DNA of 41,072 nucleotides, taken from sequence record OZ035752.1, one strand, 5' to 3'. The position numbers were made by a program, and so were the translations under genes. Below, in pieces: positions 36,286-38,818 of this stretch. The notes below the pieces were generated by a model, which was not told the origin of the DNA, made no database searches, and saw only the letters and a list, made by a program, of their open reading frames with translations. Source of the stretch: Kagunavirus LF7074P1. Positions within the stretch are counted from its first letter, which is position 1; each line of letters starts with the position of its first letter.

Positions 36286-36314
36286 TTGCACACTAAGATA
36301 GAATAGGCTACTAT
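36286..36314 (+). promoter_or_regulatory. sigma70-like promoter with palindromic operator
   Basis: TTGCAC-17 bp-TACTAT; operator GAATAG-N4-CTATTC at 36301-36316; leader AAACGAGAGGGGAG. Confidence 0.55.
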
Positions 36315-36345
36315 TCATTTACACAAACGAGAGGGGAGACAGAAT

Positions 36346-37124: not shown

Positions 37125-37328
37125 GTGGCGCAGAGATATTTATTACAAGGCGGTTTAATTGGACCGCACGATGCAGGTGATTGGGTTGGCTATGAAGATT
37201 ACGCAAAACTTGAGGCCGCCGTTATCGCATTACTTGCGGACATAAACCGACGCTACCCTGGAGAAGGGTTTAAGTGCCCGTTAATACTTAAACTCGCGGA
37301 GATTGTGGAACATGAGCCTGGCAACTGA
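37125..37328 (+). CDS. hypothetical protein
   Basis: GTG 37125 with RBS AGGAG 8 nt upstream (track start GTG 37119 too close to RBS). Confidence 0.45.
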   Translation: MAQRYLLQGGLIGPHDAGDWVGYEDYAKLEAAVIALLADINRRYPGEGFKCPLILKLAEIVEHEPGN

Positions 37329-37605
37329 CATCCTTAAACGCAGCGGCCTTGCGCCGCTGTCGCCGAGAGCTAAAACACAGATATACAAGCGCCGCCGTAA
37401 TGCACTGTACCCCGAGATTCAGGCCAGGCGCAAAGCGGTCCGCGCCTGTGGATTCCAGAACGGGAAGGCCGTGAATCTCGGTGAGTTTAAAACGCAGGAA
37501 CGTGCAGCTATCGCTAATCGGCTATTTAATTACTGGAAATCGCTGGGGTACGTGGATATTCCGACGAAACCACAGAGACGACAATACATCTGGCGGCATA
37601 AATAA
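37312..37605 (+). CDS. hypothetical basic protein
   Basis: ATG 37312 (track start 37303 is TTG). Confidence 0.5.
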   Translation: MSLATDILKRSGLAPLSPRAKTQIYKRRRNALYPEIQARRKAVRACGFQNGKAVNLGEFKTQERAAIANRLFNYWKSLGYVDIPTKPQRRQYIWRHK

Positions 37606-37635
37606 ACCGTTATTAAGATAATTCCTACCCGTGGT

Positions 37636-37675
37636 ATCCTCCAGTTACTGCATACTTAATACGCACCTGGAGGAT
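37636..37675 (+). promoter_or_regulatory. SD-sequestering inverted repeat upstream of holin gene
   Basis: ATCCTCCAG (37636-37644) complementary to CTGGAGGAT (37667-37675), which contains the GGAGGA RBS of the TTG start at 37681. Confidence 0.45.
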
Positions 37676-37680
37676 TCATC

Positions 37681-37989
37681 TTGGATAAATTTACTGAAAC
37701 AGTGACAGGCTGGCTTCTCGCCGCCGCGCTCGCCGGAGGGGTCATCGGACTACGACAACATAAGTCCGTTATTTCTGGCCCTATCGACGGATTCTGCTTT
37801 ATTGCTACTGGTTTCGCCTGCGCTGTATTTGGCGCACCTCTCGCGGCTCAATGGTTCGGTATCACGGGCGACCGTGAAATCGCTGGCCTTGGCTTCATCA
37901 TCGCTATTCTCTGGATGCCTATCTATTCCCGTCTCTCCAGTATCGTCGCTGGAGAATACATCGCACGTCGAGGAGGCACAGATGAATGA
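37681..37989 (+). CDS. holin (putative)
   Basis: 102 aa, TTG start; multiple hydrophobic segments; upstream of endolysin. Confidence 0.55.
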   Translation: MDKFTETVTGWLLAAALAGGVIGLRQHKSVISGPIDGFCFIATGFACAVFGAPLAAQWFGITGDREIAGLGFIIAILWMPIYSRLSSIVAGEYIARRGGTDE

Positions 37990-38254
37990 GTTATTCTGGT
38001 TCGGCGGTATGCTGGCAATCGGCGGCACATCGCTGTTTAATGTATACCATCCGAGCGTGGATGACGGGCTATTTGGTCGGGTGCTCTATATCCTGACTGC
38101 TATCGTCTGCGCTGCCGGATGTATCCACCTGTTACAGGGCAGCATGTCGCCGACGCTGCCTGAGACATTAATCACATTAGTTGCGCTGCGTCAGATTCGT
38201 CAGGCGTGGCTGTCATACGGAGGACATAAGCGTGTCTCGAAACATTTCAGATAA
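37982..38254 (+). CDS. small membrane protein (second holin/antiholin-like)
   Basis: 90 aa from ATG 37982 (RBS GGAGG); hydrophobic segments; overlaps holin end and endolysin start. Confidence 0.45.
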   Translation: MNELFWFGGMLAIGGTSLFNVYHPSVDDGLFGRVLYILTAIVCAAGCIHLLQGSMSPTLPETLITLVALRQIRQAWLSYGGHKRVSKHFR

Positions 38255-38720
38255 TGGATTGCATTTTACCGCCGCGTTTGAGGGGTTCCGCGGAACTGCG
38301 TATCGTGCTACGCCATCGGAAAAATACTTAACTATAGGCTACGGTCATTACGGGCCGGACGTGGCCCCAGGCAAGACCATCACGCCAGGGCAAGGCCTCC
38401 TGTTACTGAACCGTGATATGGCTAAGGCCGTAGCTGCGGTTGACGCAGCGGCGCACCATTCGCTAACACAGGCGCAGTTTGATGCAGTGTGCGACCTGGT
38501 CTATAACGCGGGGGCCGGCGTTATTTCGGCTACTACCGGTACAGGTAAGGCACTGCGCTCCGGTGATATCGCGACGTTACGGGCTAAACTGGCGCTGTTC
38601 ATCAACCAGAACGGCAAACCGTTACTGGGCCTTCGCCGCCGTACCGCCGGTCGCCTGGCGCTGTTTGACGGTAAACCGTGGCAAGAGGCGGAGGCTATCG
38701 GGCGCGCGGTGAAAGGTTGA
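38232..38720 (+). CDS. endolysin (lysozyme-like)
   Basis: 162 aa from GTG 38232 (RBS GGAGG 8 nt upstream); FTAAFEGFRG..YLTIGYGH resembles T4-lysozyme catalytic region. Confidence 0.7.
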   Translation: MSRNISDNGLHFTAAFEGFRGTAYRATPSEKYLTIGYGHYGPDVAPGKTITPGQGLLLLNRDMAKAVAAVDAAAHHSLTQAQFDAVCDLVYNAGAGVISATTGTGKALRSGDIATLRAKLALFINQNGKPLLGLRRRTAGRLALFDGKPWQEAEAIGRAVKG

Positions 38721-38786
38721 CACCCAAGACTAATCCGATGATACTTAAATCACCTCCTGTTCCATCCCTCTGCTCTCCAGTTTTAT

Positions 38787-38818
38787 CCCGGCCCTGACCC
38801 AGCCGGGATTTTTTTTAT
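38787..38818 (+). terminator. intrinsic terminator
   Basis: CCCGGC-n9-GCCGGG stem followed by ATTTTTTTTAT. Confidence 0.85.

What the first reader, a model, noticed from the sequence alone, without database searches (positions are those of the whole stretch)
37636..37683. Holin translation start embedded in an SD-sequestering hairpin
The holin ORF starts with TTG at 37681, preceded by GGAGGA within CTGGAGGAT (37667-37675). That sequence is perfectly complementary to ATCCTCCAG at 37636-37644, 22 nt upstream, so the ribosome-binding site can be occluded in a 9-bp stem. With the weak TTG start, this suggests translational throttling of the holin, a plausible lysis-timing device.
Basis: seen in the sequence. 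Interest (0 to 1): 0.4.

Follow-up and report, generated by a model that had tools for sequence, protein, structure and literature searches.

The report
Hairpin hiding holin ribosome site
A conserved RNA hairpin in front of this phage's first lysis gene hides its ribosome-binding site, probably only on transcripts that read in from upstream, because a likely promoter sits inside the hairpin; this is the same trick phage T4 uses for its lysozyme gene.

Summary
The window is a Kagunavirus. As a bare repeat it is not beyond chance (7 in the window vs 4.7±2.2 in shuffles). Comparison makes it real: five clades carrying this holin family all keep an SD-containing hairpin with different arm sequences (88.7% of cells paired vs 30-52% when slid; 9 of 12 pairs changed on both sides; 12 G·U cells that fit only + strand RNA). 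The holin RBS is the 2nd most occluded of 83 genes. The 5' arm overlaps an extended -10 motif (TGgTATCCT, 37632-40) whose TG, T1, A2 and T6 are invariant in all clades while the other positions vary. Its predicted start (~37647) lies past the 5' arm, and the RBS opening cost then drops from ~13 to ~4 kcal/mol. In three sister clades the stem is followed by a U-rich tail; the Dhillonvirus one is called terminator-like. Best reading: the hairpin silences read-through transcripts, like T4 gene e. The promoter is inferred, not shown. A new member of a known kind.

The parts
36301..36320 (+). Nearest upstream copy of the repeated 20-mer GAATAGGCTACTATTCATTT (TTGCAC-N17-TACTAT), a putative promoter of the rightward block that reads towards the holin
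   Evidence: motif copies in the window. The same motif is listed as a PHIRE 'promoter' in PMC7203180 and PMC9825357. No terminator-like site between here and the leader. Promoter function not shown.
37303..37605 (+). Upstream ORF (100 aa, phrog_9632, unknown function). Its stop at 37603-05 is 31 nt before the 5' arm, too far for a terminating ribosome to melt the stem
   Evidence: In many relatives an HslV-like protease gene lies between this ORF and the leader.
37632..37640 (+). Candidate extended -10 promoter element TGgTATCCT (TG 37632-33, hexamer TATCCT 37635-40), overlapping the 5' arm
   Evidence: TG, T1, A2 and T6 are invariant in all five clades, while n and hexamer positions 3-5 vary: TATCCT, TATAGT, TATAAT, TAATAT. 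The n position is the most polymorphic column of the core leader. TGNTATNNT occurs only 11 times on both strands of the window. No transcription start data.
37636..37644 (+). 5' arm of the hairpin, ATCCTCCAG (anti-SD-like)
37645..37666 (+). 22-nt loop. The predicted transcription start of the embedded promoter is A37647, 7 nt after the hexamer
   Evidence: start offset 8-11 nt into the hairpin in every clade. (loop pi about 0.02 within Kagunavirus). (loop unrelated in clade L122).
37667..37675 (+). 3' arm CTGGAGGAT containing the Shine-Dalgarno GGAGGA (37669-37674)
37676..37680 (+). Spacer TCATC between stem and start codon. It is U-rich (TTATT, TTTATT, TTTTT) in the sister clades, where the hairpin looks terminator-like
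37681..37989 (+). First lysis gene: 102-aa holin-family protein with TTG start
   Evidence: Three hydrophobic stretches by eye. The CPT annotation of phage Snoke gives 3 TMDs.
37982..38254 (+). Second holin-family gene (90 aa), ATG overlapping the stop of the first gene, with its own strong SD GAGGAGG
38232..38720 (+). Endolysin (Phage_lysozyme PF00959), GTG start

Best explanation
This is a conserved + strand RNA hairpin whose 3' arm is the holin Shine-Dalgarno sequence. On any transcript that enters from upstream the full hairpin forms and blocks ribosome binding. In three sister clades the stem is followed by a U-rich tail, so there it probably also terminates those transcripts. The DNA of the 5' arm doubles as an extended -10 promoter (TGgTATCCT). 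RNA polymerase starting there begins at about 37647, just past the 5' arm, so the dedicated lysis mRNA cannot form the hairpin and has an open SD. Its output is then set by a weak promoter and a TTG start. The net effect is to insulate holin synthesis from read-through transcription, as in T4 gene e. Shown here: the hairpin, its conservation and covariation, its strand, the exceptional RBS occlusion, and the conserved promoter-like motif with its geometry. Inferred: that the motif is a working promoter, where its transcripts start, that upstream transcription reads in, and any effect on lysis timing.
For: Hairpin is MFE and centroid. RBS opening energy ranks 2 of 83 genes. All 30 distinct leaders from five clades fold into an SD-containing hairpin, -14.7 to -25.1 kcal/mol. 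Arms differ between clades yet stay paired: ATCCTCCAG/CTGGAGGAT, ATCCTCTGG/CTGGAGGAT, ATCCCCCGTG/CACGGGGGAT, AGTCCCAGTGAG/CTTACTGGGACT. The count gives 88.7% of cells paired vs 30-52% slid, 9 of 12 pairs changed on both sides, covariation score 0.56 vs <=0.14 (two-clade version). 12 G.U cells fit only the + strand RNA. The extended -10 pattern is invariant at the positions that matter and free elsewhere. In L126 a G->A change breaks a stem pair while making a perfect TGaTATAAT. The +7 start falls 8-11 nt into the hairpin in every clade. Opening energy falls from 13-24 to 1.3-8.7 kcal/mol in 7 of 8 representatives. The Dhillonvirus hairpin is terminator-like and ends 5-6 nt before the ATG, so those phages need some bypass to express holin. 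The T4 precedent is described in PMC3014915.
Against: There are no transcription start or expression data for any of these phages. TATCCT is a poor -10 hexamer (4 of 6) and the -35 region is weak, so the simple sigma-70 scan reports nothing here. Two Kagunavirus genome papers predicted no promoter at this spot. Motif conservation is confounded with the stem, because the hexamer overlaps the 5' arm. The alignments used for pair counts were anchored on the stem, and the clades give few independent events. In clade L122 the predicted difference in RBS opening is small (7.0 vs 5.5 kcal/mol). The strong conservation of the loop within Kagunavirus is not explained. Nothing shows that the promoter is temporally regulated.
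Confidence: 0.5

Rival explanations
1. Constant translational throttle. All holin mRNA carries the hairpin, which together with the TTG start keeps holin synthesis slow and so sets lysis time. There is no internal promoter.
For: The hairpin is real, conserved and costly to open. TTG is conserved. Neither the scan nor two genome papers predict a promoter in the leader. Holin translation rate is known to set lysis time in lambda (bioRxiv 10.1101/2025.05.14.654169).
Against: An 11-15 kcal/mol opening cost is, from published work on RBS hairpins (my own knowledge), expected to cut translation by orders of magnitude, which is extreme for a needed gene. The conserved TGnTAnnnT pattern and the free n position are left unexplained. 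In Dhillonvirus the homologous hairpin is terminator-like, so a bypass is needed there anyway.
Confidence: 0.25
2. Mainly a transcription terminator or attenuator separating the upstream block from the lysis cassette. Holin is expressed by leak-through or antitermination, and the SD overlap is secondary.
For: In Dhillonvirus the tool calls a 12-bp stem, 6-nt loop and T5-7 tail terminator-like. Clades L122 and L124 have tails TTATT and TTTATT. Outgroup holins also have terminators upstream.
Against: In the window the loop is 22 nt and the tail is TCATC, and the scan does not call it. ARNold-based lists for two Kagunaviruses do not include it. Yet the stem and its overlap with the SD are strictly kept. 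In outgroups the terminators do not include the SD.
Confidence: 0.15
3. A DNA-level inverted repeat (operator for a phage regulator), a sigma-70-dependent pause signal, or a chance repeat with no function.
For: The raw repeat frequency equals chance. The leader lies at a mosaic junction where a protease gene is present or absent, which could keep it conserved. -10-like elements in transcribed DNA can cause sigma-dependent pausing (abstract of PMC5389655, listed).
Against: Arm sequences differ between clades while pairing is kept, so there is no conserved recognition sequence. The G.U wobbles would be mismatches in a symmetric DNA site. The leader is 8 times less diverse than codon position 3 of the adjacent gene.
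Confidence: 0.07

Closest known systems
Phage T4 gene e (lysozyme), and likewise soc, 49 and I-TevI: an RBS-sequestering helix on long early transcripts, bypassed by late promoters placed just upstream of the RBS (PMC3014915, citing McPheeters et al. 1986)
   Same: A lysis gene lies downstream of other transcription. The SD sits in a helix that needs an upstream strand. A promoter-like element is placed so that its transcripts lack that strand. Relatives keep similar leader structures.
   Different: Here the gene is a holin, not the endolysin. The candidate promoter is a host sigma-70 extended -10 type, not a T4 late promoter (TATAAATA with gp55), so no temporal switch is evident. The promoter overlaps the 5' arm itself. 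In sister clades the helix also looks like an intrinsic terminator. Nothing here has been tested experimentally.
Lambda S gene upstream stem-loop, which controls ribosome access to the SD serving Met1 (bioRxiv 10.1101/2025.05.14.654169)
   Same: A stem-loop overlaps an SD at the 5' end of a holin gene, so RNA structure affects holin translation and hence lysis timing.
   Different: Lambda's structure divides initiation between two in-frame starts (antiholin vs holin). This gene has a single start and no dual-start motif. The stem here is much more stable and lies in a different family of phages and holins.
Intrinsic (Rho-independent) terminators before late or lysis genes, such as lambda tR' upstream of S (my own knowledge)
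   Same: A G+C-rich hairpin lies just upstream of the lysis cassette. Sister-clade versions have a U-tract.
   Different: The window's version has a 22-nt loop and an interrupted tail. The hairpin includes the SD and ends 5 nt before the start codon. No antiterminator is known for these phages.

Membership tests
T4 gene e-type: RBS-sequestering helix bypassed by an internal promoter | SD and/or start codon lies in a stable helix on transcripts that come from upstream | tested here: met
   opening 11-14 kcal/mol; rank 2 of 83.
T4 gene e-type: RBS-sequestering helix bypassed by an internal promoter | The helix is kept in relatives | tested here: met
   five clades, 88.7% paired, 9 of 12 pairs with changes on both sides.
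T4 gene e-type: RBS-sequestering helix bypassed by an internal promoter | A promoter is placed so that its transcripts lack the 5' strand of the helix | tested here: inconclusive
   Conserved TGnTAnnnT overlaps the 5' arm, and the +7 start falls 8-11 nt into the hairpin. The RBS opens to about 4 kcal/mol. There is no start-site mapping, and the sigma-70 scan is silent.
T4 gene e-type: RBS-sequestering helix bypassed by an internal promoter | Upstream transcription really reads into the gene | tested here: inconclusive
   Packed same-strand ORFs, a putative promoter motif at 36301-20 and no terminator-like site in between. No RNA data.
T4 gene e-type: RBS-sequestering helix bypassed by an internal promoter | Long transcripts are translated much less than short ones | not testable with these tools
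   Needs reporter fusions or toeprinting.
Lambda S-type dual-start holin with upstream stem-loop | Two in-frame start codons near the N-terminus giving antiholin and holin | tested here: not met
   The translation MDKFTETV... has no second Met, Val or Leu start with an SD. The only internal Met is residue 79.
Lambda S-type dual-start holin with upstream stem-loop | Stem-loop overlapping the SD | tested here: met
Intrinsic terminator | G+C-rich stem with a short loop (3-8 nt) | tested here: not met
   In the window: 9-bp stem but a 22-nt loop. Met in Dhillonvirus: 12 bp, loop 6.
Intrinsic terminator | U-tract directly after the stem | tested here: not met
   In the window: TCATCTT, not called. 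Met in Dhillonvirus. Clades L122 and L124 have the U-rich tails TTATT and TTTATT.
Sigma-70 extended -10 promoter | TG at -15/-14 and a -10 hexamer with T1, A2 and T6 | tested here: met
   TGGTATCCT at 37632-40. The pattern is kept in five clades. Consensus TGnTATAAT as given in PMC3152329.
Sigma-70 extended -10 promoter | Transcription starts about 7 nt downstream, in vivo or in vitro | not testable with these tools
   No start-site data found.
Known structured RNA families (riboswitches, thermometers, leaders) | Match to an Rfam covariance model | tested here: not met
   No match at E <= 1 in 37300-38100.

The most novel reading that the evidence does not exclude
A compact three-in-one module of about 45 nt is conserved across several siphovirus genera (Kagunavirus, some Jerseyvirus, Dhillonvirus and two metagenomic clades). 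One hairpin serves as terminator and RBS mask for incoming transcripts, and its 5' arm is the -10 element of the lysis promoter, so the promoter's own transcripts escape both blocks. That would be a general insulator design for toxic lysis genes. It would also explain how virulent phages with no known late-gene switch keep holin expression independent of upstream transcription.
Probability: 0.35. Interest if true: 0.6.

Novelty: new member of a known kind. Interest (0 to 1): 0.45.

Why it matters
Lysis timing is a key fitness trait of phages, and Kagunaviruses are being collected for therapy against E. coli K1 and urinary-tract strains. If confirmed, this element shows how a small virulent phage protects itself from premature holin synthesis using 45 nt of sequence, with no dedicated regulator. 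It would also extend the T4 gene e principle to an unrelated phage group and to holins. It gives annotators a reason to trust the TTG start, and gives phage engineers a warning: moving or re-promoting this cassette with or without the 5' arm should change holin output greatly.

Tried and rejected
1. An upstream -10-like GATAAT (37617-22) as the promoter. It is not kept in other clades (GATGAT, GATACC, GATTTA, none), and in many relatives it is simply the protease gene's stop codon.
2. Similarity of the leader's TATTAAGATAAT to the repeated 20-mer 'PHIRE promoter'. The leader scores below 14 of 20.
3. Translational coupling that unmasks the SD. The upstream stop lies 31 nt before the 5' arm (15 nt in protease-bearing relatives), which is too far.
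4. Rfam: nothing.
5. A plain MAFFT alignment of leaders put the arms out of register, so I used stem-anchored pseudo-alignments with an artificial GAAA linker. This leans towards the structure; the slid controls partly answer that.
6. A genome-contig scan for prophage relatives found none.
7. Very distant holin homologues (L120/L121 and L137-L158, MAEP... N-termini) have a free SD and separate upstream terminators, so the arrangement is clade-specific.
8. RNA thermometer. A perfect G+C-rich 9-14 bp stem without internal loops does not look like one. Not tested further.
9. Literature searches found no description of this element in Kagunavirus, Guernseyvirinae or Dhillonvirus papers.

Full report
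**What the window is.** Region 37300-38800 is 99.7% identical to Kagunavirus LF7074P1 and 80-95% identical to more than 100 K1G-like E. coli siphoviruses. The finding lies in the 75-nt gap between a 100-aa ORF of unknown function (37303-37605) and a three-gene lysis cassette. The cassette is a 102-aa holin-family protein (37681-37989, phrog_2359), a 90-aa holin-family protein (37982-38254, phrog_2508) and an endolysin (38232-38720, PF00959). In the annotated relative Bas70 the cassette sits inside a long rightward block of small ORFs that runs on into the terminase and structural genes.

**Checking the observation.** Every coordinate is right. ATCCTCCAG is at 37636-44 and CTGGAGGAT at 37667-75. 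They are exact complements, 22 nt apart. GGAGGA is at 37669-74 and TTG at 37681. An in-frame TAA at 37657-59 leaves this TTG as the first possible start. TTG was at this position in all 44 relatives first collected. The distant Dhillonvirus homologue has ATG at the same codon. The hairpin is the MFE and centroid fold of the local RNA (-17.3 kcal/mol, z = -2.5).

On its own the repeat is not remarkable. The window holds 7 such perfect repeats, against 4.7 +/- 2.2 in shuffles. I estimate roughly a 6% chance that one would cover some gene's SD.

**Within-genome control.** I took all 83 annotated starts of Bas70, which has the same two arms, loop and spacer as the window. For each I computed the free energy needed to unpair -15..+3 in a -60..+30 RNA. 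The holin needs 15.4 kcal/mol, against a genome mean of 6.6 (sd 3.1), and ranks 2nd of 83.

**Comparative evidence for the hairpin.**
- Within Kagunavirus the leader is nearly invariant. Nucleotide diversity is 0.041 over -67..-1, equal to codon position 2 of the holin gene and 8 times below codon position 3 (0.338).
- The few arm substitutions all keep or extend the pairing. A->G (L040, PK1, TU03) and C->T (Ivi) in the 5' arm give G.U wobbles. T->G (L026, Ivi) and GCACC->GTAAC (the Jerseyvirus members LSPA1, PK1, TU03) lengthen the stem to 11-14 bp.
- I then collected more distant carriers of this holin family. These are Dhillonvirus (HK578, SO-1 and others, 45-50% identical), a divergent Dhillon-like contig (L118), and metagenomic clades L122/L123 (66%) and L124 (52%).
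- All 30 distinct leaders fold into a hairpin whose 3' arm holds the SD, but the arms differ. They read ATCCTCCAG/CTGGAGGAT, ATCCTCTGG/CTGGAGGAT, ATCCCCCGTG/CACGGGGGAT and AGTCCCAGTGAG/CTTACTGGGACT.
- On a stem-anchored alignment of 14 distinct arm sets, 88.7% of cells pair, against 30-52% when the partner is slid. 9 of 12 pairs change on both sides. The covariation score is 0.56, against <=0.14 for the slid versions (a two-clade version is).
- 12 cells are G.U, which pair only in + strand RNA. This argues against a DNA operator and against a minus-strand RNA.
- Caveats: the alignment was anchored on the stem, and five clades give few independent events.
- Very distant homologues (L120/121, L137-158) have a free SD, so the arrangement is specific to this group.

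**What the hairpin does not explain.** The block CGTG-N-TAT (37630-37637) is invariant across genera except at N, and N is the most polymorphic column of the core leader. Read as DNA it is an extended -10 promoter element: TGgTATCCT here, TGaTATAGT in Dhillonvirus, TGaTATAAT in L126 and TGtTAATAT in L124. The invariant positions (TG, T1, A2, T6) are the ones that matter most for sigma-70 recognition, and the variable ones (n, positions 3-5) matter least. That statement is established knowledge; the consensus is as given in PMC3152329.

In L126 a G->A change breaks a stem pair while creating the perfect consensus. TGNTATNNT occurs only 11 times on both strands of the window. The hexamer overlaps the 5' arm, and a start 7 nt downstream falls 8-11 nt into the hairpin in every clade. 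In the window that is A37647, two bases past the 5' arm.

Folding shows the consequence. The RBS opening energy is 11-14 kcal/mol for RNAs that contain the 5' arm and 4.1 kcal/mol for RNAs starting at 37645-49. The same drop, from 13-24 to 1.3-8.7 kcal/mol, occurs in 7 of 8 representatives. The wobble-rich L122 is the weak case, at 7.0 vs 5.5 kcal/mol.

**Terminator aspect.** In Dhillonvirus the hairpin (12 bp, 6-nt loop, T5-7) is called terminator-like and ends 5-6 nt before the ATG. L122 and L124 have the U-rich tails TTATT and TTTATT. The window's version has a 22-nt loop and the tail TCATC. It is not called by the scan or in published ARNold lists for two Kagunaviruses. So termination seems to be a frequent second function that is weak or lost here, whereas SD masking is kept everywhere.

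**Mechanism proposed.** Transcripts entering from upstream form the full hairpin and are not translated for holin. The nearest putative promoter motif is at 36301-20, with no terminator-like site in between. In sister clades such transcripts are probably also terminated. The embedded promoter makes the real lysis mRNA, which lacks the 5' arm. This is the logic documented for T4 gene e, soc, 49 and I-TevI (PMC3014915).

It differs from T4 in four ways. The gene is a holin. The promoter type is host sigma-70 extended -10 with no evident temporal switch. The -10 element physically overlaps the 5' arm. The hairpin has a terminator role in relatives.

It also differs from the lambda S upstream stem-loop. 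There is no dual start here.

**Weak points.**
- There are no start-site or expression data.
- TATCCT is a poor hexamer and the -35 is weak.
- Motif conservation is confounded with the stem.
- The strong conservation of the 22-nt loop inside Kagunavirus is unexplained. That loop is unrelated in L122 and only 6 nt in Dhillonvirus.
- Two genome papers on Kagunaviruses list no promoter or terminator at this position, and I found no paper describing the element.

**Verdict.**
- Observation: confirmed.
- Best model: hairpin as insulator with an embedded promoter (0.5).
- Rivals: constant throttle 0.25, mainly terminator 0.15, DNA site, pause signal or chance 0.07.
- Novelty: a new member of a known kind. 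Interest is moderate.

Noticed in passing
window 37606-37625; L042:643-1080; L046:281-718: Many Kagunaviruses carry an HslV-like protease gene (about 440 bp) inserted between the 100-aa ORF and the holin leader. Its stop codon TAA lies inside the conserved GATAAT that is non-coding in this window. The leader is therefore a mosaic junction.
   Followed up: partly
window + strand 2815, 28925, 31427, 31471, 35055, 36301; - strand 13045: A repeated 20-mer, TAATAGnnnACTATTCAnnT, contains an AATAG/CTATT inverted repeat. In the three copies inspected (35055, 36301, 13045) TTGCAC lies 17 nt upstream of TACTAT. It looks like a family of operator-overlapped promoters and matches the PHIRE 'phage promoters' of PMC7203180 and PMC9825357.
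   Followed up: partly
window 37645-37666: The hairpin loop is as conserved as the arms within Kagunavirus (pi about 0.02). It is unrelated in clade L122 and only 6 nt long in Dhillonvirus. No explanation found.
   Followed up: partly
window 37611-37617 and 37655-37661: TATTAAG upstream is complementary to CTTAATA in the loop, a possible pseudoknot on read-through RNA. Variants give A-U/G-U and G-C, but L026 and Ivi give C.A, so the evidence is mixed.
   Followed up: no
window 37691-37705: A small hairpin, UUACUG-AAA-CAGUGA, lies inside the holin coding region, within a 4-codon insertion (TETV) relative to the Dhillonvirus holin. A synonymous change in Ivi breaks one pair.
   Followed up: no
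L065:1 (Bas70 terminase small subunit start): The annotated GTG start of the terminase small subunit sits in an even stronger hairpin (AGACGCG-TAGG-GCGCGTCT), rank 1 of 83 for RBS occlusion. It may be a mis-called start or a terminator.
   Followed up: no
window 37669-37683 vs L048:620-640: Clades with a strong SD (GGAGGA, GGGGGA) use TTG, while Dhillonvirus pairs a weak SD (GGGA) with ATG. This looks like compensation that keeps initiation modest.
   Followed up: no
window 37970-37989: The ATG of the second holin gene (37982) overlaps the end of the first gene (ATGAATGA) and has its own strong SD GAGGAGG. The two holin-family proteins are therefore likely made at very different rates.
   Followed up: no
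L065:5487-5982: In the relative Bas70 the Rz-like spanin genes lie about 35 kb away from the holin-endolysin cassette, so the lysis genes are split between two genome regions.
   Followed up: no
L124:801-825: The gene caller's GTG start for the L124 holin lies inside the hairpin loop with no SD. A TTG 21 nt downstream, with GGGGGA 7 nt upstream, fits the family far better.
   Followed up: partly
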